This document shows, one piece after another, positions 19,141 through 50,500 of a stretch of 64,000 nt of DNA (position 1 is the first letter of the stretch; the number at the start of each line of letters is the position of its first letter). Origin of the DNA: Podospora anserina (lineage: Eukaryota); contig CM030332.1 in the NCBI GenBank assembly GCA_017654855.1, positions 3,162,001 through 3,226,000 on the forward strand, given 5' to 3'. Position numbers and translations under genes: made by a program. The notes under the pieces are model-generated. The model saw nothing but the letters and a program-made list of their open reading frames with translations, was not told the DNA's origin and ran no database searches.

Positions 19141-19370
19141 GAGCGATACAGTTGCGGTTTTCCAATCAGATCTCGGCGAAAAGATACAGAGGCTGCTTCT
19201 GGAGAGCGGAGGGCCTCGTTAATGAATCGCCAGTATCTTTATTACTTGACATGATTTTCACTGTCAACGCCAACACGAAACCCTATAGAGAACGGACAGA
19301 GGGGTGGGGTGATAACAAAAGCAAAAAAGCGAAATTTTCTTCTCGAGATTTTGAGGTGGCATTTTTTGGT

Positions 19371-19372
<2 letters not shown>

Positions 19373-19466
<94 letters not shown>
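19373..19466. repeat. (AC)47 microsatellite
   Basis: Perfect AC run downstream of mesA. Confidence 0.97.
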
Positions 19467-19469
<3 letters not shown>

Positions 19470-20071
19470 CACACACAGCCACACACATTATTACACAGTC
19501 ATGTTTATTGTTTTTTTTCTTTTTTTTTCTGCAGACTATTACCCCCAGGCCTTGTTGTTTTTTCTGCTTTTGCAAAGTCTTTTGCTGTTGTTGCTGCTGC
19601 TGTTGTTGTTGTTATTTACTTTGTTGTTTTTTCTGATGGTGTGTTGTTGTGTGTGGGATACCCGTTTGTCTTTAATGTTTGAGAGGGACAGAATTTCAAA
19701 AGGGGGGGAGGGGAGCGAGGGGCAGAAGAGGGAGAGGAAATTTGCAAGGTTTAGTTGTATGAAAGTAATATACCACTTTTTAATGTTTTGTTCTTTTGTG
19801 TGTTTAAAGCTGCTTGTTCTTTTGGCTTTTTTTTTGGGCGATTTTAGTGGGGGGGTTCATTGCTATACTATTACCGTTCTGCGGCGTATGATACCACCGT
19901 ATATGATACTTTTTGTTCAATCTGGAAGAGTCAAAGATGGGTAGTTTTTGGGGGTTGGGATAAATGGTAATGTTCTTCTCTTCACACGGGATGCTATGTT
20001 GGGAGGTGAGACATTTTAGCTGGAGGGGTTGAATATATCTTGGTAACGATCTCAAGCCACGATTTGGCATG

Positions 20072-20073
<2 letters not shown>

Positions 20074-20103
<30 letters not shown>
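20074..20103. repeat. (AG)15 microsatellite
   Basis: Perfect AG run. Confidence 0.95.
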
Positions 20104-20109
<6 letters not shown>

Positions 20110-21122
20110 ATTGATCGCCACGCGGGGAGGTAAGTGGTTGAGTCTGTTGTTGCAAGGAAGTTGTGAGTGCAGGTCCATTTCTACATGTGGCAGGGTTCGC
20201 AGTGGTGTGGGTGGGCGGGTGGTGCTTTCTTGAGAGGTTGGGCAGTGCCAGACGTTTGCTCCTTATCTCGAGTAAGTACAGAATCACCACTGCACCTACC
20301 GAAGAGTATGTATGTACCGGAAGATTTTGGCTTGATATACTATGTATACCCGACTTTGGCGGCATAAACGTTTTTGCACATCTCCCGAAGATATGGGGGA
20401 GGGAGTAGGTGGTCGGTAGATCGGAGGTAGTTACAAGCTTTTTGGTGATCTTCAGGGCAGGATGTGATCGTCGATGGACCGGATTGACATCAACAAACAC
20501 CAATCGCAGAAGAAGAGGTTATCGCCGGACGGTTTAAAGGATGGGGAGATCATTTGTCTGCTGGGTTTTGGATATTGCGACTCTGCCGGAGCTTCTCCCG
20601 CGGGGTTATAGTAGGGGTCTGAGGTATAGTGCTCATACCACCTTGCTCGGTGCTGGGAGCCGTGAGGATTTCGGCTTTGTCTAACGATTCTCCTAGGTTC
20701 CGTTGTACAGTATCCAACCTCACTTCGATCAGGTACCCAGTTCATGTTTCGACGGCCCGGTCATCCCGATCAGAAACTGGGAAGGAAAAGAGTTCCAATC
20801 TCAGTCAGCTCAGGCTAAAGATAGGTTTTTGTGTCTGGATCAATGACACGGTCGGATGTCGACGAAGAATGTGGGACAGGATCGGTCTGGAGCAGGTTTC
20901 TCTCGCGCGCTTTCATATTTCAACGAGGCGAAAGTTCCCATCCCTTCCTTGGTGTGCCCAGAAGATCTAGAATGTGGCCGTCGACATTCCTTACCGGTTC
21001 TACGCTGAACCTACATTCCTTTGCCCTCAAACACTTTACGCGTGGGTTGCTTTAAAACCACCTACCTTCACATCACCTCCAGTCCTTTCTGTGTCAGCAG
21101 ATTTTGAGAGGGTAGGTTGAAA

Positions 21123-33380: not shown

Positions 33381-34172
33381 CTATGCCTGAGGCCTGACAG
33401 TGATAACAGGATACGTAGGAATCGGCACCGGCACAAGCCTGATGCTAGTGCTGACCGGCGGCCTGCAAGGAGGAGCAGTGAATGTAGGCCACGGCTTGCA
33501 GTCAGGGAAGCATCTGTTTTCTTGATCAGTCTCTTCATTTCCACCGGCAGGATACAAGGAAGAGGGAGGGGGGATCTTACCCGCCATACATCATCCCACA
33601 CTCATTGATGTAATCAGCACAAACCGTCATTCCGCTCCCGTTGCAAGTCGAGGGCTTGGTAGTGGATGTCGGGATCTTGGTCGTCACGGGCTTGGGGGTA
33701 GTGGTCGGCTTAGGAGTAGTGGTAGGCTTCTTCGAGGTAGAGGTGGGCTTCTTGGAAGTGGTGGTAGCCTTGGCAGTGGTGGTGGTCTTCTTGGTGGTGG
33801 TAGTCGCCTTCCTGGTGGAGGTCGTCAAGGTGCGCTTGGAAGTTGTACTGGTCGTCTTCTTGGTGGTAGCAGAGGGAGTCAACTGGACCACCTTGGTTGT
33901 GACGACAGTGGAGGTGGCCGGGCAAGCGGGCGGCTTGGGCTTCTGGTCGGCCTTGCAGACGTTGTAGCAGCTATTATGCTGTTAATGACTTGCTGACTTG
34001 AAAGAAGGAAAAAGAGGCAAAAATACCCGCCGTATTTGACACCACAAGCATTCAGGGCGTCAAAGCAGATGATCCCGTCCACACAAGGCTCCTCATCGGG
34101 CACATCAACAGGGGCTGCTACCGCCAACCCTCCCAAGACAACAAGAGAAGAAAACACTGTCGTCAGCTGCAT
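33381..34172 (-). CDS. Secreted protein with two Cys-rich modules flanking a Thr/Lys-rich mucin-like stalk
   Basis: Signal peptide MQLTTVFSSLVVLGGLAVA; modules CFDALNACGVKYGG|C and CADYINECGMMYGG|C; 2 introns. Confidence 0.8.
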
Positions 34173-36622
34173 GGTGATGATGGGGTCAAGTAAGACAGCG
34201 GAGGCGTTCCAAGAGTCTAAGAAAGGAAGGTGAAGCGCAAGAAGCAAGGGGAATACGTGCTTGGGTTGACAGATGACGAGGGACAAGACCAGACATATAC
34301 GCTTATGCTGCACACACACGTAGGGCACTCAGACACACCCGCCCATCCACAAGCCAGGATCTGGTTATAGAAACCTCAGCTTGCCAGCAAGCCAAGCAAG
34401 CAGCTGGAATGTAACCATGGGCCATCTGTTGTTTCTCGTGTTTTCATAAGCCCATAAACCTGCAACGGCCGGGTCTACTACCTTAGCTACGCTAGCTCAG
34501 GTAAGGGTGTATAAAGAAGAGTAGCATGCTCGGTATTGACAATGGGATTCTTCCAGCCACTTGACATCAATCGTTGGTAGAGATTCATGCTACTACAGTG
34601 TCAAACGAGACGCCACAGAATGGAAGCCAAGCCGGATAGGTCTTAGAATCCAAGACAGAAAAGGGTAATTGAAGGACTGATATTCCGACTTACATACTTT
34701 TGAACTTGAATGTAGGGAGTAGCGAGTTAAAATCTTTGAAAAGGTAGGGTTGCGTACAATGTCTTAGCCTGCGTAAGTAATAGCCTAAGGTAAGCCGATC
34801 CCCCCCGGATTTTCGGAGCGGTTGAAAGGGGAACCATTCTTCTCCCACACCAAAAGCTCAACCCGCAAAAAAGTTCAGAACTAGAAGCATCCCTTCGGAA
34901 TTGGCCCGCATGGACATTCCAAGGGAAACAGCAGCGCAGACAGCAAGGAAAACTCTCCGTCGTCCCAAGACAGGCACCATTGCAACCCAGTGTAAGGGTC
35001 CTCGCTCGGACATCAGACGACCATTCCTCTGCCCTGCTGCCATGCGGGTGACATCCATTCACAACCGTCTCCCATGTTCCGGCAGTCTGCATATTGCAGC
35101 CGTCGGGGAGACTTGGACCGTAGCTCTTGGCATTGAACCTCGATGGCGTGTAGACTTACACATGTCCATACCGGACCGGCTTCGGTTCGCGTGTAGAATG
35201 TTCCCGTGGTTGGAGCAACCAAGGAGAACATGGCGAGTGTCCTTGTTCCTGAAATAGCTGTACGTCGCCCGCTCGACGGCTCCGTCCGGCACGAACTCCT
35301 GCTGCAACACAAACTTAATATCGACTGGCCGTCTGTGGTCCCACTGAGTCCTTCAACGAGAAGAAGGAAGAGAAGCAAAAGGTCAGGAGAAACGTTGCGG
35401 CTGCGGTTGTCGACGGCTTCGTACGGACGGAGGGCGTATATCCTATCTCAAAAATTAGTCCATGGGCGGTTCTCGTTAATTGTTTGTGCATCCGCGCGGC
35501 TGTCGGGTCCGTGAGTCGAAGAGGAAGGAGGCATTGTCAAACTCAGCGTGGGGTGATGCTGTCTTGCTTGTCTGCCATGTGGTTTGACATCCATAGTCTG
35601 GGGAAAAACAACCGGGGAATTTCTAAGCCACTGGCCCACACTGGTGGGCTGTAAGTGTGTCTAACGGACATGAGGTCAGAAATTGAAAACAATCTTTCTA
35701 GAACCGATGGAAGCCACTTGAAGAAGCCAAGTGTACCTGCCTCGCCTTGGGGGCAATCTCGTCTTCATCTCCTGCCGCGGTACAAAAAGGAAGGCGACAG
35801 GAAGAAAGGGTTCGGTCAGCGTTCGCAGCAGAGAGGCAACACAAGCCGCAATGTACAGTCATCTGCCGACCTGCCGTTAGGGTTCTCGTCCAAGCATTTC
35901 GCTTCAGCATCCTCACATTTTCCTCCTAATTGCTTTCTGCGCGGATAGATGAGCCGATGAAGCCTTCAACCAGGTGTTTGGAGCTTCTAAAAATAATCCC
36001 CAAAGGAAAAAGAAAAAAAAGCAGAAAACAATTTAATCAATTCCGATTTCTTGCGGGGGGGGAAGCGGAAGGGGCAAGGGAAAGAAAGGCTCTGGAAGAA
36101 ACAAGATCGCCCAGAGATAGCGGTTGAATTGGTCAACGTCGTCGCTCAATTTGGCTTAATTGACTCCGGCAGTATGCCAAGGACGCATTGGCAATATCTA
36201 AGTCGGTACAACAAGCAAACAAAACGCGTGACGGTGAAGTGTGGGGTTGTGCTTGCCATTTTATGTGTGCGAGGGTGCGTGTGTGTGTGTATGTGTGTGT
36301 GTGTGGGTAGTAGGAGGCAAGATCATCACGAGAGGGCAGCAGGACATGAGATAATGGCAAGGATGAGGGGTGTTGAGTGTGGTGGTGGAAGAGACGAAAT
36401 TTCTGGTGATGATGTGATCAGTGAAGTGAAGACGACAGCGATACACAGACAAGTATATAAGACGACGCCACCGCCGGCATTGAGCCGATATTATCACCAT
36501 CACCATCACCAGCTCCAATAGCTTCATCAGACTCGAGTATTAGCTCCCTCCTCAGTTCTTCAAGCCACATCTTTCTCAGTACAGGGCCTCACCACCAGAG
36601 CCTCACCTAAACATCACCAAAA

Positions 36623-37326
36623 ATGAAGTTCCAGGCCATCCTCATCGCTACCCTCTCGGCCACCGGCCTCGCCTCCCCCGTCCCCGAGCCTCAAGCCAAG
36701 CCCAAGTTCGTCCAGGCTTACACCCTCCGTCTCTCCTCGTAAGTTTCTTCACTTGATGAGCCTCCTACCCACCCCTTAACACAATTAACTTCCGAAAACG
36801 ACCCCTATCCCTCTCTTTCACGCTCCCCCATCACCCCCAGCATGCCACCCCCTTAGCTAACCCCCCCAGGCGCACCCCCTCCCTAGACGGAAAACCCCTA
36901 ACCCTTTCCAACACAACCCTCGGCATCTTCCCCTCCTCCCCCTCCACCCCCCTCTTCTACCCCATCCGCAACCCCCAAACCAACCTCCTCGAGCTGCACT
37001 CCCCCCAAACCTCCTCCGCCCTCGCCCTAGTAGGCACCCACGGCCTCCTCTCCCTCTCCGCCCTCCCGAACCCGGCCTCCGTCACCGTCCCCACCGGCAC
37101 GACCCTCGACTGGCAAAACTTTGACCTCTCCGACGACGCCTCCGCCGGCTCCCTCACCTACGCAGGCAGCACCAAGGACGGCTCCTGGGTCGCCTTCCCC
37201 GTCGGAAAGGGTCAGGCGGGCGAGTGGGCCGTCAAGTGGAAGGACGTCACCGCCACCACGACCCAGAACTACATCCCCGTTAAGGTTGTCTACGAGGTTG
37301 TCGAGGGGTTCCACATTACTGCTTAG
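36623..37326 (+). CDS. Secreted protein of unknown function (about 190 aa), missed as a whole by the ORF track
   Basis: MKFQAILIATLSATGLASP signal peptide; intron about 36739-36869 with GCTAAC branch; strongly C-ending codons; TAG 37324-37326; TATA near 36454. Confidence 0.8.
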
Positions 37327-37887
37327 ATGTATATATCAGAGTGAAAAAAGAAAAAAAGAAAAAAAAAGGGGGGGGGGGGCCGGTTAGCTTGCCAAGAGGA
37401 TGATGAATGAAAGTTGGTGTTGTTTTGTTTATTTAGGGACCCAGCTGGGAAGGGGGAAAAAAAGGAAGGGGGAAAAAGCTGTTTTGATATTGATGTTTTC
37501 TTACTACTTCTTTCCTTTCCATAACTTGAATCAAAAGATTGATCATCTTGGAGGAAAAAACCCATCGTTTCCGTATTTCATGACTGCATTACCCCTGAAA
37601 CAAAAACTAAAACAAAACAAAAACCTATCAAAGAGTTGAACAAGAAAGCATTTCCATTGCTGTTACTCTGACAAAGTGAAACTCCAACCATGCAGGAGAC
37701 AAAGGTACAAGTTTACACATGTCTAGTTAGAAAAAAGCATGTCCCCGAGTAAACCCTTTCTGCGGACTAGACAAAAAAGAACCACGCACCACCCACCCAG
37801 GTCGTTCTTTTATTTTTCATATCCCAAACTCCCGTTTCTACATCACCACCTCTTTCCCCTCTCCCGTTACCCCAAACCACATTAAAT

Positions 37888-38934
37888 TTAAAAAGCCATC
37901 TGCTTCTTGATGGACTGGATGGCCTGGCCGGGGTTGAGACCCTTAGGGCATGTCCTTGTGCAGTTGAGAATGGTGTGGCAGCGGTACAAGCTCATCGAGT
38001 TGTTAAGGGCATCCTGGCGCTGGAGCGTCTTCTCGTCACGGGAATCGACAAGCCATCTGTAGGACTGGAGAAGGATGGCGGGGCCGAGGTACTCCTCCGA
38101 ATTCCACCAGTATGAAGGGCACGAGGTCGAGCAGCACGCGCAGAGAATGCACTCGTAAAGACCGTCGAGCTTCTTGCGGTCCGCCTTGGTCTGTCTGTAC
38201 TCCCTTCCCTGTTTATCGTGTCAGTCGTCGTCTGCCGGAACACTCGGGGACATCTCAAAAATCGCGGGCAGCCTTACATCTGGGGCAGGGGTATCTCTTT
38301 GCAGGTAGGGCTTAATGGACTTGTACTGCTTGTAGAACTGGGTGAGATCGGGAACGAGATCCTTGACGACGTAGGTGTGCGGCAGAGGGTAGATCTTCAT
38401 GTCGGCCTTGTCCTCGTTGGGGATGCGGCCTGTCGCGTATATATCAGCATCCACATGCGCTTTCTCAAAATCCTTGCTTGCTCCTCAGCCCCTCCTCCTC
38501 CTCCTCCTCCCACCCCCACCATATCTCAACTTCAAGGACTTGGACATACACAAGCAAGCCAGGGTGTTGGTGCCGTTGATGTTCATGGCGCAAGAGCCGC
38601 AGATACCCTCTCTGCAGCTGCGGCGGAAGGTGAGGGTAGGGTCGATCTCGTTCTTGATGCGGATGAGGGCGTCGAGAACCATGGGGCCGGTCTTGTTAAG
38701 ATCGAGGGTGTAGGACTGCATCTTGGGCTTCTCGGAGGGCTGGTCGGGGTTCCAGCGGTAGATCTGGAAGGTCTTGAGGTTGGCCTGCTCGGAAGCCGTG
38801 TTGTTCTGCTGGGCGGCGTCGGCGAGCTGGGCCATGCCGCGGAAGGCAGACGGGGCGGCGGCGGCCATGCGAAGCGAAGGCCTCGCGGCGGCGGCGCCCA
38901 AGAGAGCAGAAGCGGTAGAGCGGAGAGCGGCCAT
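37888..38934 (-). CDS. SDH2: Succinate dehydrogenase iron-sulfur subunit
   Basis: Mitochondrial presequence; [53 protein letters not shown]. Introns 38549-38430 and 38277-38209. Confidence 0.98.
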
Positions 38935-39138
38935 TGTCGTCGACGTCGGCTTCGGGGTGGCTGTGGTGGTGGTGCTAGGACCGGGTATCAAGTATCAAGG
39001 GGATAGAAATAAGGAAAAAAGGCCTCGGAAAAGGCAACAGCAACGGGCTGTGGTTGAAGTTGGTGGTGGCACTGAATTGGTAGTAGAGGGTCATCAATCT
39101 TCACATTCGGTTTCCCGGAACACCTCGGCAAATTCTGA

Positions 39139-39158
39139 CCAATCGTTGCCACCGAATT
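39139..39158 (+). promoter_or_regulatory. CCAAT-N12-ATT element (CBC:HapX-type bipartite site) in SDH2 promoter
   Basis: CCAAT CGTTGCCACCGA ATT matches CSAAT-N12-RWT, about 205 bp upstream of the SDH2 ATG. Confidence 0.5.
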
Positions 39159-39573
39159 TCAATTGAAGCAACCGCGTCCACTGCCGTCCACGCCCGAGGA
39201 CTCGCCTAAAGGAGCATAGCTGCTTATGTAACGCCCGTTTTGCAACTGTTTGAACTCTTTAAACTTTTGGGCGGCTCCAATTGCCACGGCCGAAAACGTC
39301 ACTGCTTTCCGCGATCTGTCCAGCCCACGTCCCGATCTGGATGACTGGACAATGACGGCTCGAACAGCACATTCAGATCAAATTTTCCGACTGTTGAGTT
39401 GCGCCACTTGCATAAGAGCTGTATGGCCCCTGCGTGAGTCCATATAGCAGTTGTATGAGAAGTCATGAAGATATCGTGAGATAGTCCCACCCATTAGGAC
39501 CACATACCTAAACTCATATGCAATGAGATGATATAAACCCAACAAAGAAAAAAAGACAAAAACATACCCTGCA

Positions 39574-40461
39574 TCAGTCCTTCCACTTCTCCTCTCCAGG
39601 ATCCCACCCCAAAACTTCCGGCTCAATATTCAAACTTTTCAACATCATGAGCATCGTAAAGCCCTCCGTATCATCCCCCTCCTCCCCTTTTTGTTCATCC
39701 TCTTCACAATCCTCCCCCTCAAGCTCACCCCTGTAACCCTCCCTCTCCTCCTCCTCCTCCCCTCCCACCCCCTTTTTATCCTCCCCATCCCAATCCCCAA
39801 ACCTCCTCTTCCTACTCTCCCTCCAAGCCCCCCCGCCCCCCATCCCATCCACCCTCCCCTTGACAACCTCAAACAACTCCTCCGCCGCCAACCTACTCGC
39901 CCCCTTCCACTTCCCAACCAACTCGCTCAGCTCAGCATCAACCTCCTCCCCAGGCCTCTTCCTCCGCGAGGCCTCCTCAATCCTCTTAGCCTGCCTCACC
40001 CGCTCAAGCTCCTTCTCCACCTTCTTCATCTGTGCATCCAACTCCCTATGAGAGCGCTGGATTCGTTGCAATAATTCATCTCCCTCATTAGTAGACCTAG
40101 CAGTGTCCTGCTGCCGCTGCTTAAACGGAAAAGGCGTCGACACGGACTTGAAGCTTTTCTGGAGAAGCAACGGTCTCCGGGCGGCAGCGCTGTTCGTCCC
40201 CAGCCTAAGGGGTGACGGATTGCCTGGTCGCGAGGGGGTTGCTGGGATTGATGATGATGTTGGTGGGCGAGAAAAGCTGTCGATAGAGCGGCGAGACAGA
40301 CTTTGTGATGCTTGTGTCGGGGTCGCATTGCTGGTGGTTGTGGATGGACTCTGCCGGTTGATCATTGGTGATCTGAACGGCTTCTTAAGAGTCGCATTCG
40401 CGGCGTCCACGCGCCGGCGTTTGGCCGAGGGGATGTTGGGGGTGTTTTGTGATGAGGCCAT
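39574..40461 (-). CDS. SFR1: Sfr1/Mei5-family recombination mediator
   Basis: TLKKPFRSP, coiled coil, ELSELVGKWKGASRLAAEELF, FTMLMMLKSLNI..LGWD C-terminus. Confidence 0.75.
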   Translation of the reverse strand: MASSQNTPNIPSAKRRRVDAANATLKKPFRSPMINRQSPSTTTSNATPTQASQSLSRRSIDSFSRPPTSSSIPATPSRPGNPSPLRLGTNSAAARRPLLLQKSFKSVSTPFPFKQRQQDTARSTNEGDELLQRIQRSHRELDAQMKKVEKELERVRQAKRIEEASRRKRPGEEVDAELSELVGKWKGASRLAAEELFEVVKGRVDGMGGGGAWRESRKRRFGDWDGEDKKGVGGEEEEEREGYRGELEGEDCEEDEQKGEEGDDTEGFTMLMMLKSLNIEPEVLGWDPGEEKWKD

Positions 40462-41140
40462 TGTAAGTTGATAAAAGAGTCGTTATTGGTCGTGATGCGT
40501 TGTTCACTGTTGAGATGAGGCCGATGTTGACGGGTTATTCTAAGTGTTGAGTTGTGTGATGTAAGCAGAAGGTGTAAAACTATTGGAGAGTTTGAACTTG
40601 GAAGGTGCTCAGGCACCGGGAAGGAGGCTTGATGACTGCCTCTCAGCCACGAAAATTGCCAGTTGTAGGAAAGCTAAATGAAATGGTCAGCATCGAGCTG
40701 AGATTGAGAAATGTCAACCCAAGAAGTGATGATGGAATGGCTGGGACTTTGAAGCACACAATATCAAGACCACAAGTAACCCTAACCCTCTCCAACCCTC
40801 ACCATCACCCCTCGACGACTTGCTCTCTTCGTCTGATCTTCAAGCTCCCAGGGACAAGCAGCAATATCTCATACTTCTTTGTCATGTTAAGATTCCAAGA
40901 AGCGTGATCATAGTTAAAATTCAATGCTGTCAGCACAAGTACCTGAGATTATTATATCTGCCCCCCATTCACCACCCATCGACGACGACAACAACTCATC
41001 TCGACCAAGATCCCCCCCAATAATTATTGCAGGCTCTCTTGATATTTACATCCATCAAGAGGCACACATTCCCAGAATAACAAAATGACTTTGAAAAAGA
41101 AAACCAAACTTGGAGGGGTGAATAAGGTAAGAGAAAAGAC

Positions 41141-41270
41141 AAAAAGTGAGCTCGAACGTGCGCCCTCCAGGTAGATACTTGAATGCCCAGATGGTTTTGG
41201 GCGCGACCCGCTTACCGCTGATCCATCTGGTCAACGGGTAGATTTTTAAGGTCTCATTCGGTCACTTGGT
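41141..41270 (-). ncRNA. Candidate Pol III-type structured ncRNA (about 130 nt), family unknown
   Basis: B-box-like GTTCGAGC followed by T5; A-box-like 5' segment; TATA element about 30 nt upstream; 5'/3' ends complementary; internal 8-bp stem. Confidence 0.5.
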
Positions 41271-41627
41271 GACGGAAGGTGCGGCCGAAGCCTTTGTATA
41301 AATACCGTGGTGGAAGGAAGGTGTGGCCGGATGTGTGTAAGGAAGGAGCGGCTGGTTAGTGTACAAGGAAAGAGCGATTGAGTCATGGGCAATTTAAAGA
41401 AGTAACATGAGTAGGAACTCCAAGTGACATGTGTGACTGAGGAAGAGCAACTTCAGTGGGATTGAGAATAGCCAAACACAGGGTGAGAGTGTTTCGGTTA
41501 TCGTGACGAAACACCCACATGTAGCCTCATTGCATATATTCTAGAAGCTAACTATCCTGACAAACCTCATTACTGTGACCATTTCCCGAGTGTGCCAATT
41601 ACATTACCTCTCCAAAGTGGTCACCAC

Positions 41628-43329
41628 TCAATACCCCTGAGCCTCAACAACCCCATACCTCACCAACCCCAACACAGCCCCAAAGATACACGCTACCGGC
41701 GGCTCAACCCCAAACCAAGCACCACCCACGTAGCTTCCCGCCGTAACAACCACCCACCAAGGATCATCCGCCAAACTCTTCCCCTGACTGAACCCCTGAT
41801 CAATCCACCCAATCTGCCACAGTCTATACACGGCCGTGTAAATCAGCCCAACAGCAGCAGCATTCACACCCCTCAACGAGCTCTTCACCCACCTCCACCC
41901 CCTAATCGCACTCCAAAGACCCATGGTCCCATGAACAGTCCACAACCCAGGCAAGAAGATCGCCAAGAAACCCAAAAACCCTCCCAGCACCCCAGAATAC
42001 CCCCCATTAATCGCCGTGAGGGTACCCAAGTAAACAGCAAAGTTGAAATTCGGCCCCGGAAACCCCTGGATAAGCGCCAGCCCAATCAAGAAGTCTCTAG
42101 GGGAAACCCAATTCTCCGCAACGATATACTCCCTCAACAGCGGGATAACCACCGGCCCGCCCCCAAAAATAATCGTACCCGCCAGGTAGAGGTTGCTAAA
42201 CAGCCTATACAGCAACGGGTTCGCCGGGATGAGGCCACGAGTGAGCATAACCGCGATAAACGACGCCAGAAAAGCCACAATCAGCGCCAGCCCTGACTTC
42301 CAGGACATGACGCTGATCTGGTGGCTCCTCGGCACAACCCTCTCCTCTGCCTCTTCCTCCTCCCGTCTGAGCTGCTGTTGCGACTGCCCGTCCGCATTAT
42401 CACCCCCAGTTGAAACCCTCTCCCTGGTCCCCTTCCCATCCTCCTCCCTCACAACCTCCCTCTCCGCCCCCGAACCCCCCGGCACTCGTTGTTCCCTCAA
42501 TTCCACCTCCCTCTCCTCATCCCTGACCTTCCCCTTCTTCACCTTGCTCACAACCCACAAAACCGGCCCATGCAACCACCTAAAATCCCACACCACAGCC
42601 ACCACCCCCGCCGCCAGCATCAAAACGGGAAAGTACCATAGCGCATTGTACAACAACCCGGCCGCCGCGCCCAAATAAACCAACAACCTCGTCAGCTTGT
42701 CCGTAATAGCCTTTTGCGCCAATTGCACAGCTGCCAGAGCAATAATCCCAACAGTAGCCGCGTTGAGGCCAGAAAGCAACGCATAAACCGCACGGGGAAG
42801 TGTTTCTCCAACGTTGGAGATACCAATCGCGAGACCAAACATCCCCAACGCACCGGGGAGCGACCAGAGGAAGAAGGAGAGGACGGCGGGGGGGAAGCCG
42901 AGGCGGAGGAGGTTGATGCAGTAGTGCATTTTTGTCGAGCCGGGGCCGGAGAAGGCTTGGCAGATGGAGAAGAGTTCTTGGTACTATTCACAAACCAAAA
43001 CATTAACAATGACTATCTTAAGGGAAAAGGGGGCGGAATGGGACGTACGACTGTCTCGTCGATCCAGGAGAGTTTGGAGACGTATTTATCATGGAACTAT
43101 TGTCGTTGTTAGTTTATATCTATGATATGGAAATGAGGGGAGGCTTGTAAGGGGTGAAAAGAGGGAAACATACAATCTTGAAATGCACCGGCGGGCCACC
43201 AAAAGAGGTGAACCCCATGTACCAGTTCTCCTTGAAAGAAGTCCACATCCGAGGGCCGATCTCGTCGAGGTTGACAAAGTCTTTGAGACGCCATGTTGTT
43301 GGGTCCCAGCGGTGGGATTTGAGGCCCAT
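41628..43329 (-). CDS. Chromate ion transporter (CHR) family protein
   Basis: GFTSFGGPPVH, YQELFSICQAFSGP, GTIIFGGGPVVIPLL, IQGFPGPNFNF, SLRGVNAAAVGL. Introns 43173-43097 and 43048-42984. Confidence 0.9.
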
Positions 43330-44535
43330 TTTGGGTGGTGGTTGCTGTGTCGGTGGTGGTGATGGTGGTGAATGCGTGTAAGTCAGCGCGTGTAAGTGCC
43401 TTCCCGAATGATCAACCCCTCCAAAGCACCAACACTTTCCCTGTCAAAGAGTGTGAGAAGGTCTGGTGAAAATCAATGTTGATACCCGAGCTGCTCACTC
43501 AAATATATACCCCCCCGTCTTCAACTCCCTTGTTGATCGCCGACCATCAAAGCGAACAAACACAGCAAGCTACCCCCCCACCCCCCCATCCCTATGTCCC
43601 AGATTCCCCTTCCCGTGCGCCAAGCATCGGCATCAAACTCCCCATCCCATTGGCGCGACACCCATGACGCCAGAGCACGTGTACACTTCCCCAATCCCAT
43701 TGGCCAATTCTCAACACCACAACTTGTCATACACTTTCGGCGAGATGGTTTAGGAAAGGCTCAAAATCAAATCAAAACGTCGGTATTGATACAAGGCTGA
43801 TGATGATATCTTTCTGTCTCTCTCTGTGTGGATGTGTCTCTCTGCTGTGAACCACAAAAGTCCCCAAAAACACCCAAAAAACCCCAAAGGAATATGTACC
43901 AGTAGAAGCGAACGACACACACACACACACACACAACCACAACGACAACAACCCATAACGTACACACATTTCCTTCCGTCCATCTCCCCAAACCAACGTG
44001 CCATACCAGCTAGCACTGTTTTCCATCCATCCATCCAAAAAAAGACACGCTGATTTCCTCCCAGTTGAATAATTCGCAACACAGACGCTTCCCATCAAAC
44101 CCCCCAACCAACCCCCTGATCCAATCCAACCAACCCTCATAATATACAACATTGCTTCGCTTCTTCCCTCGCATCATACATCCGATAGTTTTGCTTGTTC
44201 TTCAACTCCGAGATCTGTGTCATCCCTCCGATGTTGAATGTTTGTGTTGTTCCTGCCCCCCTTTCAACTCTCCAAAAAAAAAAAAAAAAAACGAAAAAAA
44301 CCAAAAAAAAACCAAACGAACAAACGCCAACCATTGTTCATCTCTCTCAAAACATGCTCCTTATCCCAAAACAAACCCTTTAAACCCCAAGGTCCCAACC
44401 AAAACCAAACCAACCCTAGATGCTGATTTTTAAGCCGGCTTTTTGTAACCCGAAAACAGAAGCTCCGCAAAGCATTCTCCAAACAAACAAATGAAAAGGT
44501 TAATGTGTTCACTTTCACTAGGCATCGTGAACCTC

Positions 44536-47500
44536 TCAGTGGTGTCGCTTGCTAACAGGCATATGCCCATCATAATCCCACCCTCGCTTCAGCCCACCCC
44601 CAGCCTCGTACACGCTCGCCACCGATTCCTGCCACATGGCCGGTGTGACAAAGTTCTGCACCGGGGCCACGGCGGCCGAATACTGCGCTGCTGCCGCCGG
44701 CATGGGCTGCTGCTGCTGTGCAGCTGTCCTAAGCTGCGCCTGCACCGCGTGCATGTCGTGTATGCTCGCCGTGTCCGAGGCGCCGGATGAAGCGCTCATC
44801 GCACCACCACCACCACCACCACCACCCTGTCCCCCTGTTGGTGACGACTGGACTGGAGGGGTGCCGAAAGAGGTGTTCCATTGGCTATGAAACAGTCAGT
44901 ACAACTACCACTGGTGGTTCCCTCAGTTGTGTCACTTACTCAAAAATCCGCGACGGGTTCCACGCAGGCGGCGCCTCTGCCAAAGCCAACGACGACTGCG
45001 GCACGGCGGCCGGTGCCTGAGCGCCATGGCCGGAAGGCATCATTCCGAGCGACTGTACACCGGGGGAGGAGTCACTCTTGCTGTCCAGCGGGCCGACGGT
45101 GGAGATGGGTGTGATGGGGAGGCTGTAACTAACTTGCGAGTGTGGCACCTGCGTGTCCAAGAGCCTGGGCCCGGGCGGGCTGGGGTGCGAGTTGGAATGC
45201 GGGCTGCCGTACGGGAAGCTGGGCTTCAGCACGAACGGCTTCCGGACGTCCGCAGAAAAGGCCTCCCGCACCGAGTCGATCTGCCTCTGCATGTCCGGCA
45301 TGGGCCACGAGCTCATGCACTTTTCCAGGATCCTCATGTGGCGCGTAAAGTACTCCCTGGCTTCCGAGTTCAGGTCTGGGTCTGGTGATGTCAAGGCAAC
45401 CTGTACGTAGCAAGCTTGTCAGCAAAAAGAAGTTCAAAGCATTTGGCATATGAAAGGGTCGGCGTACGAGGTGTAGGACAATGCATGCGAGCACCGCGTA
45501 AATGGTAAAGTTGATGCCCCGCTGCATGCACAGCAGTCCGTTCAGTCCGTACGCGCCCATGACAGCCTCCTGGAGTCTGCACAGCATCTTGGCTGCGTTG
45601 TACGACACCAGCATGTGATGTTTCCATTGGCCCCCTGGCGTGGAAGGGGACAAGAAGGCGAGCTGAGGCCTGTTGAACAGGATAATCGACAAGTAGTAGT
45701 ACGAATGGACGTTGCCGACAAAAGCTGAAGGCAGCCACGGCGGTGAGCCGTTGGCTGGATAAGTTATCGACATGTCTGCCGGTATCTCAGCCAACCAAGC
45801 ATCGAGAGCCGGGCTGATCTGGACGAAATCGGGATCGAGGCCCCATTCCTTGACCTCCTTGCTCTTCTTCAACCGCCCGTACACCACCACCATGCGGCTG
45901 ACGTTGCGAACCACTCTGGCGAGGTAGGTGAAGTTGCGCGAAACGTGGTACTCGGATTCATCTTGGTTGGGTAGCAGCCTCGGCACGTTGAAGTCCACCG
46001 TGTCCTCCTCGACCTGAAAATCGGTTCGCCCTACTCTACTCGTCAGCTTTCTATGCGCAGCACAAACCACAGGTATCGCTCTGCCGTGTTGCCATACCCT
46101 GAGGAGAACCAATCATCATCTCCACCATGAATAATGTCTGCCAAATTCTCGTCTTCAGGGCACACTCGGATGGGCTCGACCCACAAGACCTGCCGTGTCG
46201 GTGGTCTCCGTAATGCTCATCTAATCCCAAGTCCTTGCCCAACTGGACACACTGCTCGATGCTCATCCATGAACGGTAATAGTAGCCTCGCTTCGGTGCC
46301 GATTCGCGGGCCTTCAGAAGAATCATGAGTGCCTGTAGCGTGCTGAGGCGAGGGATATCCATGAAAGAGTCGGCGTGGCGGGTGGCGAGCGCGAGCCACT
46401 GTTGCCCTTGGGCCGGTTCGTCTGCTAACCGGCCCGAGATGGCAAACATGGCTTCCAAAAGAAGGGGCGATATCGATTCCCTGTTGTCGTGCCACTGTTG
46501 ATAGAAGTGGGCTTTATCCAGAACGGGCACATAAGGATGGGCATTCGTAAAGTACAGGTCCAGGTACTGAAGGACGGTGTCGTCGTCGGGCATAAGCTCT
46601 GGCGGAATTCGAATTTTGGATCCTCCCAAACCAGCTGTGAGTGGTGGCAACAAACTCTTGTATTCGTCGCCCTCCTCCACGACGGGATCTTCTTCCCTCA
46701 TCGATTGCATCTTGCTGTTTAGATAGGGCGCTGTCCCTGCCTCGTTAACCTTCAAGGACCCTAACAGGTCGGCCAAGTCTTGTTGTGCATATTCTGACTG
46801 GTAGGTGTCCGCCGGAGATGCTGGATGTGATGGCTGTTGCATCGGCGGTGTTGGAAATGCGGCCTGGGCGCCATACTGGTGATCCACAACATTGACAGCA
46901 CTGACGGCGTGATGCACAGGTTGATATTGTAGATTGTGAGGGACTGTCTGAGAATCGGAATACTGGACCGCATGGTAAAGGGCTGATGTGTCCTGGTAGG
47001 ATGTCTGCGGCGCATAGAGGTTAGGTTTTGGTGCATGTCCTAGGAGCTGTTGTTGATCTTGTAGTGGTAGTGGCTGTCGGAAACCCTCATGCACATGCGA
47101 GGTCTCAAACTGGGATCGTGGTGGTTCGTAGACCTGAGGTTCAGACGACCCGTCGAAGCCGTTCGGACGAACACAGACAAGTTTCAGGCGTATGCATGCT
47201 GAGCAGGGCCAGGTGTTTGTGGTGGCAGCGTCACACTTGATCTTTCTCCTCCGGCATCCCTCGCAAGCTCTCATCACTGTATGCGCGAGTCAGTTTGATA
47301 CATGGGGGGGCACTAGCGGGGGATGAGCGCTGATCCCATACCCTTCAACCGCTTGTGACGGTTATGTTCGTCCACAAAGACATAGTCTAGCTCAACGGTC
47401 AGATAACAGAACCAAAAAAAGGGGAGGGAGGGGCGCACTCTTTTGCGTCTCTCGTGGTTGCTGCTGATAAGCCGGAGGCGCAAAGCTGAAGCTCCCCATC

Positions 47501-47547
47501 TGCGAGTTTTGAGGGAGCAGCCGGCGCACTGTAGGGTCGTTGGACAT
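44536..47547 (-). CDS. Zn(II)2Cys6 transcription factor with fungal-specific TF middle domain
   Basis: RHKRLKVMRACEGCRRRKIKC...WPCSACIRLKLVC; YF..AHPYVPVL; RIWQTLF. 5 introns (47438-47387, 47341-47277, 46097-46031, 45467-45401, 44939-44885). Confidence 0.93.
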
Positions 47548-50500
47548 GGTGGTGGTGGTAGTGATGATGATGAACGGTGGGATAAAGCGTCTTGCGCAGA
47601 CGTTCGCAGCTATGCGCTGATGATGGACGAGAGAAGGCGACTCCACATTCAAGTCATCCGATGATAGAGGGCAAAAAGCAATGCGCGCACAGCCGTGGTA
47701 TCGGGTCGCTGGGTCGAGGTGGGCGGCCGGCGCAGGGTTGGCGTGTGCGTCTCCAGTGAGCAGTGGGCAGTGAGCAGTGGTCCAATGTCGAGGCGGCAAA
47801 GGAGGGGGAGGCGAGATCTCTCTTCTCGACCACAGCACAGCAGCGGCAACAAGTTCAAGCAGTAGGCAGACAGACGTAGTGGTAGTAGCAGGAGTGAAAG
47901 CGTGTGTGTGTGAGTGGACGTCGAGGGGATTTTAGCCAAACGCGTGTACAGAGTGATTGTCCTGATGCCCTGGTCGGCGAAGACGAGCTAGTAATAAGGG
48001 TGGTCCCAGGACCTCCTGGACGTCGAGCGAAGGGGTAACCCTGCCCAAAGGACCCGGCACGTCCTGTCTTGATCAGGACCTCCACAGCACACCTGCAGGT
48101 GCACGAATCTGACAAGCTCGCTATGGGGAATTTCCCTCAGCGTGAGAGGGCCCCCAGGAACTGAGGGAGATACTGTAGGGTATGTAATCGAAAGCGAGCT
48201 GCTGTTGCTGTCGCTGTGTAGGCGGAGAGTTGGCAAGAGCCAGTTCAGACTTTGCGCAGCGAGTACGAAACAGTGCGGCGCAGACAAGCGTCCCCCTCAC
48301 AGACCAGCAGTGTCTCTGATAATGATGCTTGTGATATTGGCATGAACAAGGCCGGCCGTTCAGAAAATGCAAAAAAATGCAGTTCATTTCCAGAGAAGCT
48401 AGTGTAGGTGTATCTAGCTAGCTGTGCTAATTCAAGAGTGGCCAACCTCACAGGCAACACACTCCAAGGCAGGAGGACGGGAGGAGGAGGGGTAGAGTGA
48501 AGACATCAGGGGCGTTGGGATAAAGAACAGCCCGCGTCTCCAGGTCTCCCCTCGAGTGTGGATGGCAAACCGGGGACCCCCAGGGTTTTCCCATCTTTTT
48601 CCAGGTTGACCGCACGAGCCACCCCCAAGCCAGGGTCTCGGAATCTCCAGTGGAAGGCCGCTGTGTGTGAATCGAGCATTGCTTGTCCACTTGTCGTCCA
48701 TCGTCCCTAAATTGCTGGATATCCACCCACTAACACCAAATCGTTGCTTTGCATATCGCGGCAGTTCGCGCACGTCGACCACCTCTTTTTTCTCCTCGGT
48801 CGATGACGGGAACAGTCTTTCTGTACTGACATCATGTCTTGCTGAGAGCATGCTCTCGTAATTTTCGGACTTAGGAGATATCGCCCCTCTATTTTCGTGC
48901 CACGTTCCCAAGTCGTTTCTCGTTCCTCGTTTAGGTTCTCGTTTTCCCGTCCTTGGTTTCCCCATGGCCACACCGTATTTGCTGGCTTCCTCGATGGCCC
49001 CGCGCCGATCCCCATGGTCCGGCGCCCGTGGTGGACAAGCGGTACCTTAACAAGCAGGATTCCACCATGCTTGGCTTGGGAAGGACAAGGAAACGCACCG
49101 CAACGCGACAATTCTGCTGAGCTACACAGTATTACACGACAGGTGCCGTCGCCAGGGACAGTGAGTGGCATGGCATGGCATGGCGAGGCTGGGCGACGTA
49201 AGCGGGGTGGCAGCCGCAGCACACTCGCATGCAATGTGCGATTGCAGCGCAGTCAGCCCGGTAACGTGGGGAGCCCATTACCGTGCCGCCTGCCCCTGGC
49301 GGGAACGGGTAAGCCCCAGGCTAACGACACATCATTCATGCGATATAAAGTACAACCAGTTTCTAGGAAAACCACGGCTTGTCCGTTGTTTAATGAGTAG
49401 ATTGCCTTTTCAGCGTGCCCAATGGCTGAATCAATGAGCTCGTATGCTCATGGCAACAGTGCCACAGCAATACCGCAGACTACCCTACACCGAGGCCCGC
49501 CGAGGGCGTGCCTCTGACGCCTGGTGCTGCAAGCCAGTCTCTGGGCGCTGCGTGACTGACAGTTGCGGACAGGAGGAAACAGGCTAGCGAGAACCGAGCA
49601 GCCGTCATCCAATCTTGACAAATGAGAGTTGCAGCGCCCTCTTGCCACGACGTATCCCCAAAAGCACCGCGATACCGCCAGAAAACAGTCTCACGGACAC
49701 TTCCGGGCGGAGACGGTTATTCCTCGTGGGCCGTCAGGGTAGTCCTTCCGTGACTCTGGGCGAGCCTGGTGACCCCTGAAGCGCGTGGTGTCTGGGTGCT
49801 GAAACACATCGCGAACCTTCCTTCAAACATCACAACACATGTCAGGGGAAGCCATGGGGGAAGCGGTGAGCTCCACTGACACGCCCTCACCAGCACTCTG
49901 CGCCAGCAGCGTCTCTCTTCCCCTCACACAAATCTTGCGCAAGAAAAGACGGCAATGGCCGTGACGTGAGGTGGTTGTCTGGGAGTTGGGCCCGCGAGAC
50001 TATCCGAACCCAGTGGCTGGGCATCGCAAGCCCTTGCCCGTCACCGTTTTCGATGGAGATGCCCAGCATGCGGATATACTGCGGGAGAATTAAACCTCCT
50101 TCTCTTTCGAGCCCGAAAAACACGTGCAGATGTGCACACGCACGATATCGACCTGCCTCCTTCTGAAGCCTTTCATCATTCCGTCAAGGCGGACCCTGGT
50201 CAAGGAACCTGTCAGTTGATCGTCTTTGACAAATGATGGATGCAAGTCGGTCCTCGTTTTCTGTAGATCGATCTTACCAAGATAGCGTACCACGATGTTG
50301 CCTTGCTATTGTTGATGAGTCTACTGTGGTCCAATGGCTAGTGTATTCGTGCAGCATGCTCCGTAACCCAAGAATCAACATGGATCGTTTCGGTGTGTGG
50401 TCTCGCCCATCCCATGTCTTATCACATGCTCATGTTCTAGACGCGAAGGGGTGGGGCGGTGACAACGCTCTCCAGATCGAGAGCATGCCGAGGGACGGAG

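What the first reader, a model, noticed from the sequence alone, without database searches (positions are those of the whole stretch)
41141..41304. Orphan Pol III-like structured ncRNA between SFR1 and the CHR transporter
Seen (minus strand): a TATA element (TATAAATA on +, 41297-41304) about 30 nt before ACCAAGUGACCGAAUGAG...GACCAGAUGGAUCAGCGGUAAGCGGGUCGCGCCCAAAACCAUCUGGGC...GGAGGGCGCACGUUCGAGCUCACUUUUU. The 5' AAGUGA-C-CGAAUG pairs with the 3' CGUUCG-AGC-UCACUU, forming a bulged terminal stem. CCAGAUGG/CCAUCUGG forms a perfect 8-bp stem. GCGCCC inside that loop can pair with downstream GGGCGC, and ACCCGUU with AGCGGGU (pseudoknot-type pairings). Established: GTTCGANNC B-box, TATA at about -30 and an oligo-T end are hallmarks of Pol III genes. 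It is not a tRNA (the T-arm stems do not pair and there is no cloverleaf), and I see no U1-U6, 5S, SRP or RNase P motifs. Inference: a small stable RNA with vault/Y-RNA-like architecture, or a Pol III milRNA precursor, that I cannot assign to a family.
Basis: partly seen in the sequence, partly recalled or inferred. Interest (0 to 1): 0.72.

Follow-up and report, generated by a model that had tools for sequence, protein, structure and literature searches.

The report
Unproven Pol III-type small RNA candidate
A 125-letter stretch between two fungal genes is laid out like a small RNA gene read by RNA polymerase III and matches no known RNA, but nothing yet shows that the RNA is made or conserved, so chance remains almost as likely.

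Summary
The described sequence is there. On the minus strand a TATA-like octamer lies at -34..-27, followed by a 125-nt GC-richer body whose two ends pair, then T5 and a further T4. It is not a tRNA, not a 5S rRNA and matches none of the 4227 Rfam families.

The fold is moderately unusual and strand-specific: MFE -43.2 kcal/mol, z about -2.7 to -2.9, in the top 2% of GC-matched windows. The individual "Pol III hallmarks" are weak:
- The B-box-like site has 3 mismatches of 10.
- The A-box-like site has 2 mismatches and sits at +46.
- The window holds 70 equally good A/B pairs.
- The terminal stem ranks 46 of 188 among T5 runs.

Only the conjunction is rare: 0 of 3000 local shuffles, and 0 in 491 kb of other fungal DNA. 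From these rates I estimate one or two such constellations per genome by chance.

No second copy or homologue turned up in the window or beside 80 relatives of the neighbouring chromate-transporter gene, but those loci do not share the downstream gene order. Whether the RNA is made could not be tested.

Verdict: an unproven orphan Pol III-type gene candidate (about 0.4), with a chance constellation nearly as likely (about 0.38). The scan has flagged similar, sequence-unrelated candidates in other fungal genomes.

The parts
41297..41304 (-). TATA-like octamer (TATTTATA on the minus strand, TATAAATA on the plus strand), at -34..-27 from the proposed start
   Evidence: sequence read directly
41146..41270 (-). 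Proposed RNA body, 125 nt with GC 0.54. Predicted three-way junction: a terminal stem plus two arms of about 48 and 46 nt
   Evidence: MFE -43.2 kcal/mol, z -2.70. The MFE structure makes up 0.10 of the ensemble (9 of 400 shuffles and 7 of 400 GC-matched genomic windows reach this). The reverse complement folds worse (-38.1, frequency 0.004).
41141..41145 (-). T5 run (candidate Pol III terminator). Its first two T can extend the terminal stem, and G-T-C-T4 follows
   Evidence: Real 5S genes in L021 and L079 end in the same kind of T5-G-T-N context.
41255..41267 (-). 5' arm of the terminal stem (RNA positions 4-16)
   Evidence: pair probabilities 0.76-1.0; duplex energy -12.9 kcal/mol, rank 46 of 188 T5 runs
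41144..41158 (-). 3' arm of the terminal stem (RNA positions 113-127). It contains the B-box-like CGTTCGAGCTC (41148-41158)
   Evidence: The B-box-like site has 3 mismatches of 10; 413 sites of that quality are in the window.
41215..41225 (-). A-box-like TGGATCAGCGG at RNA positions 46-56 (2 mismatches to the recalled consensus TRGCNNAGTGG)
   Evidence: 306 sites of that quality in the window
41199..41204 (-). GCGCCC, the 5' strand of the helix that closes the 3' arm (RNA positions 67-72)
   Evidence: pair probability about 1.0
41160..41165 (-). GGGCGC, the 3' strand of the same helix (RNA positions 106-111)
41187..41230 (-). 8-bp inverted repeat CCAGATGG ... CCATCTGG with 28 nt between the arms. 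It is an alternative or pseudoknot pairing, not part of the MFE fold
   Evidence: probability about 0; forcing it costs 7.9 kcal/mol
41628..42983 (-). Upstream neighbour: the long exon of a chromate-transporter gene, with its stop at 41628-41630. Context only.
   Evidence: Pfam PF02417, E 6.6e-51. Probable RNA contigs end at 41437-41512.
39574..40482 (-). That label was not confirmed. Context only.
   Evidence: no Pfam family at E<=0.001. Probable RNA contigs start at 40601-40710.

Best explanation
This is a lineage-restricted small RNA gene transcribed by RNA polymerase III from an upstream TATA-type promoter.

Proposed mechanism:
- TFIIIB is placed on the TATA-like octamer at -34..-27, and transcription starts near A41270 on the minus strand.
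- Transcription ends in the T5 run at 41145-41141, giving an RNA of about 125-130 nt.
- The 5' and 3' ends pair in a 13-bp bulged stem, leaving a short 3' oligo-U of the kind the La protein binds.
- Two further arms form a three-way junction.

Shown here: the sequence elements, the predicted fold with its moderate, strand-specific stability, and the absence of any known family. Inferred: transcription, the polymerase, the RNA ends and any function. On this reading the A-box-like and B-box-like matches are probably incidental.
For: - Layout: TATA-like octamer at -34..-27, a start at a purine after a pyrimidine, and a terminal stem running straight into T5 followed by T4.
- Fold stability: z = -2.70, 2 of 200 shuffles; 3 of 400 shuffles; 48 of 2561 GC-matched genomic windows as stable.
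- Well-defined on the minus strand only: MFE frequency 0.10 against 0.004 for the reverse complement, and ensemble diversity 12.7 against 42.2.
- Less tailored detector (strict TATA octamer, start 27 nt later, first T5+ run 70-200 nt on): 24 segments in about 555 kb of window plus loci. The candidate has the lowest z (-2.92) and the most end-to-end pairing.
- Full conjunction: 0 of 3000 shuffles of the intergenic region and 0 in 490,767 nt of 80 other fungal loci.
- Real 5S genes of related fungi show the same layout: an AT-rich motif near -27, about 119 nt, then T5-G-T-N-T-rich.
- Precedent: passages of PMC3547838 read state that the major Neurospora milRNA loci are intergenic and Pol III-transcribed. 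milR-1 depends on TATA-like elements, has no A or B box, and has poly-T tracts.
- The body is a GC-richer island (0.54) between flanks of 0.40-0.46.
Against: - There is no positive evidence that any RNA is made, and none for conservation or a second copy.
- Each motif alone is at noise level. The terminal stem ranks 46 of 188. The A-box-like site has 2 mismatches and lies at +46, where a type-2 promoter would put the start about 30 nt further in. The B-box-like site has 3 mismatches of 10 and lies inside the stem. The window holds 70 equally good A/B pairs.
- The canonical TATAAATA reads on the opposite strand.
- T5 is a minimal terminator.
- The thresholds were set after the fact. From I estimate about one or two such constellations per 36-Mb genome by chance, more if other feature sets would also have been accepted.
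- The candidate was picked from a very large scan.
Confidence: 0.4

Rival explanations
1. Chance constellation. The stretch is ordinary intergenic spacer between the 3' end of the transporter gene and the promoter of the next gene. A TATA-like octamer, a moderately stable fold and a T5 run happen to line up, and no discrete RNA is made.
For: - The stem is unremarkable: 46 of 188 T5 runs do as well.
- 48 of 2561 GC-matched windows, and 1048 of 8516 windows overall, fold as stably.
- 70 A/B pairs of equal quality are in the window.
- By independence, stem plus TATA at a T5 run is expected about 0.7 times per window (188 x 46/188 x 3/188). It occurred 14 times in 3000 shuffles of the 1145-nt region.
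- No Rfam, tRNA or 5S match.
- No homologue or second copy in about 555 kb.
- The A-box position conflicts with the TATA position, and the B-box lies inside a helix.
Against: - The complete conjunction did not occur in 3000 local shuffles, nor in 491 kb of other fungal DNA.
- The candidate is the best of 24 TATA-to-T5 segments by z-score and by end pairing.
- The fold is much better defined on the strand that carries the TATA-to-T5 polarity.
Confidence: 0.38
2. Worn relic or single copy of a Pol III-derived element: a decayed tRNA gene or a tRNA-related, SINE-like repeat. It would keep an A-box-like 5' part (U8, G10, A14, G18G19, A21-like positions in GACCAGAUGGAUCAGCGGUAAG) and a B-box core. 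It might or might not still be transcribed.
For: - An A-box-like site (2 mismatches) and the GTTCGA core lie 56 nt apart, followed by T5.
- The match to tRNA positions is my own reading of the sequence against recalled tRNA rules; no tool scored it.
- Earlier follow-ups in this scan found that several similar-looking fungal candidates were copies of dispersed repeats (e1-7701486, e1-7578101, e1-7578980).
Against: - ARAGORN finds nothing even with introns allowed and thresholds lowered to 70%.
- The Rfam tRNA model gives no match at E<=10 on 156 nt.
- No T-stem or anticodon stem can be drawn.
- There is no second copy in the 64-kb window or in the 80 loci.
- A/B pairs of this quality are common: 70 in the window.
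Confidence: 0.12
3. Pol III-transcribed precursor of microRNA-like small RNAs (milRNA), as at Neurospora milR loci.
For: The intergenic position, a TATA-like element and a poly-T end fit what PMC3547838 reports for milR-1 (passages read).
Against: The predicted fold is a three-way junction, and its longest uninterrupted helix is 7 bp. The only alternative long-range helix is 8 bp and disfavoured by 7.9 kcal/mol. No Dicer-length duplex is available. No small-RNA data could be examined.
Confidence: 0.05
4. Highly diverged 5S rRNA pseudogene. I raised this because of the 5S-like size, the three-way-junction topology, the TATA, the T5 end and short look-alike blocks.
For: - The size and arm lengths resemble 5S rRNA (against recalled 5S dimensions).
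- A real 5S gene lies about 80 nt downstream of the transporter gene, on the same strand, in L021.
Against: - Rfam 5S gives no match at E<=10.
- nhmmer with a profile of two real fungal 5S genes finds no hit at the candidate at E<=100.
- A covariance model of those two genes finds only a trivial hairpin, 4.3 bits.
- Pairwise alignment scores are at the shuffle mean: 596, 858, 417 and 636 of 1000 shuffles score as high.
Confidence: 0.02

Closest known systems
Pol III-transcribed milRNA loci of Neurospora crassa, especially milR-1 (PMC3547838; passages read)
   Same: Both are single intergenic loci in a filamentous ascomycete with a TATA-like element upstream and a poly-T tract at the end. milR-1 needs no A or B box.
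   Different: milR precursors are hairpins processed into small RNAs of about 19-25 nt. This candidate folds as a three-way junction without a long duplex. No sequence comparison with milR loci was possible.
Dispersed 5S rRNA genes of filamentous ascomycetes
   Same: Gene layout: an AT-rich or TATA-like motif near -27, an RNA of about 120 nt whose ends pair, a three-way junction, and a T5 terminator followed by more T.
   Different: There is no detectable homology in sequence or structure.
Y RNAs and vault RNAs (animal Pol III small RNAs; features recalled, not from a call)
   Same: An RNA of about 100-130 nt whose 5' and 3' ends form a bulged terminal stem followed by oligo-U, with an upstream TATA.
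   Different: No match to any Rfam family, these included. The partner proteins (Ro60, major vault protein) could not be looked for, because no genome is held. From recall, neither RNA class is established in ascomycetes.
Saccharomyces cerevisiae SNR6 (U6 gene), as a promoter type (recalled)
   Same: A TATA box near -30 combined with intragenic A-box-like sequence, and a T-run terminator.
   Different: There is no U6 sequence or fold (no Rfam match). The A-box-like site sits at +46 and the B-box-like site lies inside the RNA's terminal stem.
tRNA-related SINE-like repeats of fungi
   Same: A-box-like and B-box-like sites and a T-run in a GC-richer island packed with hairpins.
   Different: Only one copy was seen in the DNA that could be searched. 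No tRNA-like fold. The copy number in the whole genome is untested.

Membership tests
tRNA gene or pseudogene | Cloverleaf fold that tRNA finders or the Rfam tRNA model can detect | tested here: not met
   ARAGORN finds 0 genes in the window, and 0 in 41050-41400 with introns allowed and thresholds lowered to 70%. No Rfam tRNA match at E<=10.
5S rRNA | Match in sequence and structure to 5S models | tested here: not met
   Rfam: none. nhmmer profile of two fungal 5S genes: no hit at the candidate at E<=100. Covariance model R1: best 4.3 bits, a hairpin only. Alignment scores are at the shuffle mean.
Any described RNA family (Rfam 15, 4227 models, including U1-U6, SRP, RNase P/MRP, Y RNA, vault RNA and snoRNAs) | Score at or near the family's gathering threshold | tested here: not met
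   0 matches at gathering score in 64 kb. At E<=10 only unrelated chance matches appear: RMST_3, Methylophilales-1 and mir-3473, at 12-16 bits against thresholds of 55-80.
Pol III gene with an internal type-2 promoter | A box about 8-20 nt after the start and a B box 30-90 nt further on, both close to consensus (consensus and spacing recalled) | tested here: inconclusive
   The A-box-like site has 2 mismatches at +46. The B-box-like site has 3 mismatches of 10 at +113. The spacing of 56 nt is acceptable, but 70 pairs of equal quality occur in the window. The A-box position does not fit a start set by the TATA.
Pol III gene with an upstream TATA-type promoter | TATA element near -30 and a T-run terminator at the RNA's end | tested here: met
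   The octamer lies at -34..-27 (canonical form on the opposite strand), with T5 at 41145-41141 followed by T4.
Pol III gene (any type) | Transcript made by Pol III: Pol III/TFIIIB occupancy, a 5' triphosphate and a 3' oligo-U | not testable with these tools
   No run on record as RNA was listed, and the laid runs are contigs that cannot show short RNAs. There are no ChIP data.
milRNA precursor | Hairpin with a Dicer-length duplex that yields 19-25-nt small RNAs | tested here: not met
   The longest uninterrupted helix in the MFE fold is 7 bp, and the 8-bp alternative costs 7.9 kcal/mol. Small RNAs could not be tested.
SINE or dispersed repeat | Several copies in the genome | tested here: inconclusive
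   There is no other copy in the 64-kb window or in the 80 loci. No look-alike stretch appears in other windows of the scan. The whole genome is not held.
Conserved structured ncRNA | Homologues in related species with compensatory base changes | tested here: inconclusive
   80 metagenome loci encode relatives of the neighbouring transporter (32-85% identity). 64 of them have at least 500 nt downstream. None matches by blastn (best E 0.30, in the T-rich tail) or by covariance model R2 (self hit only). None keeps the downstream gene order either, so the orthologous spacer was never sampled.

The most novel reading that the evidence does not exclude
The locus encodes a previously undescribed, stable Pol III small RNA of filamentous ascomycetes. 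It would be about 125-130 nt, TATA-driven, and fold as a three-way junction closed by a bulged terminal stem with a 3' oligo-U. That makes it a fungal counterpart in architecture to Y or vault-type RNAs. It would be conserved within its order and would act through a protein partner rather than as a small-RNA precursor.
Probability: 0.12. Interest if true: 0.6.

Novelty: new member of a known kind. Interest (0 to 1): 0.3.

Why it matters
The Pol III transcriptome of filamentous fungi is poorly charted beyond tRNA, 5S, U6, SRP and RNase P RNAs. In Neurospora, Pol III also drives milRNA loci from TATA-type promoters (PMC3547838, passages read). If this RNA were confirmed, it would be a new orphan Pol III transcript with no family, and would raise the question of its protein partner and role. 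If it is chance, the case shows how weak A/B-box and TATA matches are as evidence. The window alone holds 70 A/B pairs of the same quality, and real 5S genes of related fungi carry weaker TATA motifs than this candidate does.

Tried and rejected
- **Expression.** No RNA holder was listed. 14 runs guessed to be RNA hold 0.53-0.64 of the words of 39500-43000. I laid the contigs of 4 of the 24 listed runs (X1, X2, X3, X8, from four studies). They cover the SFR1-like gene up to 40601-40710 and the transporter gene down to 41437-41512, and nothing in between, the candidate included. Contigs of presumably poly(A)-type libraries cannot show a 125-nt Pol III RNA, so this counts neither way.
- **Whole genome.** None is held for this window, so copy number and Ro60 or vault-protein genes could not be checked.
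- **Larger metagenome records.** The records behind the loci could not be searched.
- **5S pseudogene idea.** I raised this from recalled look-alike blocks and rejected it.
- **tRNA or tRNA with intron.** Rejected.
- **snoRNA boxes.** I read the sequence by eye for C/D boxes (RUGAUGA, CUGA) and for H/ACA boxes (ANANNA, and ACA three nt from the end). I found none on the minus strand (motifs recalled).
- **Rfam on relatives.** Scanning 18 of the 80 loci, the closest and longest (124,114 nt), gave 0 families.
- **Synteny.** tblastn with the SFR1-like protein and tblastx with window 36000-41627 gave 0 hits in the 80 loci. A wider tblastx (34000-50000) gave only short, mostly low-complexity hits outside the transporter gene in 20 of 80 loci.
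- **Earlier notes of this scan.** Nothing near the place, and no look-alike stretches.
- **Literature.** I ran two searches and read passages of only one paper (PMC3547838). The second search returned nothing on Sordariales Pol III RNAs among the 10 papers listed. I did not search papers for the sequence itself. Supplements were not consulted.
- **'SFR1' label.** Pfam gave no family at E<=0.001, and the best match (E 0.011) is to unrelated coiled-coil models.

Full report
**What is there**

Read on the minus strand, the region runs as follows:
- GGTATTTATACAAAGG holds the octamer at 41304-41297. It reads TATAAATA on the plus strand.
- 26 bases follow.
- The body ACCAAGTGACC...GAGCTCAC runs 41270-41146.
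- Then come TTTTT (41145-41141) and GTCTTTTC.

Two details need correcting. The canonical TATA orientation is on the opposite strand. The 'B box' is GTTCGAGCT, which does not fit GTTCGANNC; against the recalled consensus GGTTCGANTCC it has 3 mismatches of 10 specified positions.

**Context**

The stretch lies between two minus-strand genes:
- Upstream is a chromate-transporter gene (long ORF 41628-42983; Pfam PF02417, E 6.6e-51).
- Downstream is a coiled-coil ORF (39574-40482).

The candidate starts 358 nt after the transporter's stop codon, and its T5 run ends about 660 nt before the end of the downstream ORF.

Contigs of four runs from four studies, guessed to be RNA, cover the downstream gene up to 40601-40710 and the transporter down to 41437-41512. 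The part between them has no cover. As the tool states, this is not evidence about a short non-polyadenylated RNA.

**Fold**

The 130-nt RNA has an MFE of -43.2 kcal/mol, and the centroid equals the MFE. The structure is a three-way junction:
- a 13-bp terminal stem with two one-base bulges (positions 4-16 with 113-127);
- a 5' arm (positions 18-65);
- a 3' arm closed by GCGCCC/GGGCGC (positions 67-72 with 106-111).

Pair probabilities are 0.76-1.0 for the terminal stem and about 1.0 for GCGCCC/GGGCGC.

Forcing it costs 7.9 kcal/mol, so it could exist only as an alternative fold or a pseudoknot.

Significance of the fold:
- z = -2.70, with 2 of 200 shuffles as stable; 3 of 400.
- 48 of 2561 GC-matched 130-nt windows of the same 64 kb fold as stably, and 1048 of 8516 windows overall.
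- The fold is well defined only on the minus strand. The MFE structure makes up 0.10 of the ensemble, a value reached by 9 of 400 shuffles and 7 of 400 genomic windows. The reverse complement reaches 0.004.

**What it is not**

- tRNA: ARAGORN finds none, nor with introns allowed and thresholds lowered to 70%.
- Rfam 15: nothing at gathering score in 64 kb. At E<=10 on 551 nt and on 156 nt there are only unrelated matches of 12-16 bits.
- 5S rRNA: the size, the junction topology, the TATA and the T5 end reminded me of fungal 5S genes, so I tested it. A motif scan found two real 5S genes in the fetched loci, L021:2446-2564 and L079:3446-3564, and each scores 128 bits against a profile built from the two of them.
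  - An nhmmer profile of the two finds no hit at the candidate at E<=100.
  - A covariance model of the two finds only a trivial hairpin of 4.3 bits.
  - Pairwise alignment scores are at the shuffle mean: 596, 858, 417 and 636 of 1000 shuffles score as high.
  - The candidate shares a gene layout with 5S genes, not ancestry.

**How far chance goes**

Taken singly, the hallmarks are weak:
- Among the 188 T5+ runs of the window, 46 can form a terminal stem at least as stable (-12.9 kcal/mol) with something 50-170 nt upstream.
- 3 of 188 have a TATA match 15-45 nt before that stem. By independence that gives about 0.7 stem-plus-TATA cases per window.
- A-box-like sites with up to 2 mismatches number 306, and B-box-like sites with up to 3 mismatches number 413. 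70 pairs have suitable spacing, 4 of them followed by T5 within 40 nt.
- The A-box-like site lies at +46. A type-2 promoter there would set the start about 30 nt inside the proposed RNA. That conflicts with the TATA and with the terminal stem.

The conjunction is rarer:
- Stem, TATA and an A/B pair at a T5 run occur once in the window (the candidate itself), 0 times among 7421 T5 runs in 3000 dinucleotide shuffles of the 1145-nt intergenic region, and 0 times among 766 T5 runs in 490,767 nt of the 80 fungal loci.
- Stem plus TATA without the boxes occurred 14 times in the 3000 shuffles.
- A less tailored detector (strict octamer, start 27 nt later, first T5+ run 70-200 nt on) gives 24 segments in about 555 kb. 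The candidate has the lowest z (-2.92) and the most end-to-end pairing.

Scaling these rates to a genome of about 36 Mb (the size of the DNA runs' contigs) gives roughly one or two such constellations per genome by chance. That is my own estimate. The number is higher if one allows for the thresholds having been chosen after seeing the candidate, and for other feature sets a reader would also have accepted. It is of the same order as the plausible number of true orphan Pol III genes, so the intrinsic evidence cannot decide the matter.

**Relatives**

No whole genome is held. A metagenome scan with the transporter protein returned 80 loci at 32-85% identity. 75 of them reach the C-terminus, and 64 of those have at least 500 nt downstream.
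- blastn with the candidate and with the whole spacer gives nothing better than E 0.30, in the T-rich tail.
- A covariance model built from the candidate finds only the candidate itself in 554,767 nt.
- None of the loci keeps the downstream neighbours, so the orthologous spacer was never sampled.

The absence therefore says only that the element is not linked to this transporter gene across distant ascomycetes. No second copy exists in the window. No look-alike stretch was recorded elsewhere in the scan.

**Comparison with what is known**

- The nearest precedent in a related fungus is the set of Pol III-transcribed milRNA loci of Neurospora. Passages of PMC3547838 read say these lie in intergenic regions. 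milR-1 has no A or B box and depends on TATA-like elements, and poly-T tracts are marked in the loci. The candidate shares that gene layout but not the hairpin needed for Dicer products.
- Its layout also matches dispersed 5S genes.
- From recall, it matches the SNR6 promoter type and the terminal-stem-plus-oligo-U design of Y and vault RNAs. No Rfam model of these matches.
- Earlier follow-ups in this scan met similar candidates in other fungal genomes. Some proved to be dispersed SINE-like repeats and others stayed unproven orphans. That note led me to keep the repeat reading as a rival. I could test it only within the window and the loci.

**Verdict**

- About 0.40: a lineage-restricted Pol III-type small RNA gene driven by the upstream TATA and ended at T5.
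- About 0.38: a chance constellation in intergenic spacer.
- About 0.12: a worn tRNA- or SINE-type Pol III relic.
- About 0.05: a milRNA precursor.
- About 0.02: 5S-derived.

Everything about transcription, RNA ends and function is inferred. The decisive data are a genome-wide and cross-species search with covariation analysis, and a Northern blot or small-RNA library.

Noticed in passing
L021:2446-2564 (+) and L079:3446-3564 (+): Genuine-looking 5S rRNA genes lie right beside the chromate-transporter gene in 2 of 80 metagenome loci. In L021 the gene is about 80 nt after the transporter match ends, on the same strand. In L079 it is about 440 nt before the match starts. Both end in T5 followed by more T, and L079 has TATAT at about -27..-23. 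This may be coincidence, since 5S genes are dispersed in these fungi.
   Followed up: partly
window 39345-39903 (-): With introns allowed, ARAGORN calls a 'tRNA-Ala' with a 462-nt intron inside the SFR1-like ORF. It is absent in default mode and from Rfam, so it is almost certainly spurious.
   Followed up: partly
Its best matches (E 0.011 and worse) are to unrelated coiled-coil models, so the label is unverified.
   Followed up: partly
window 40601-40710 and 41437-41512: Contigs of four runs guessed to be RNA stop in these two intervals. This suggests the 5' end of the SFR1-like mRNA and the 3' end of the transporter mRNA, with about 730-900 nt of uncovered spacer between them.
   Followed up: no
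window 19365-19505, 20065-20117 and 43903-43955: Long (AC)n and (GA)n microsatellites. The (AC)n tract also forms imperfect inverted repeats with a (GT)-rich tract at 36239-36309.
   Followed up: no
window 37888-38994 (-): ORFs reading like a succinate dehydrogenase iron-sulfur subunit, split by an intron, lie just downstream of the SFR1-like gene (translations; named from recall, not tested).
   Followed up: no
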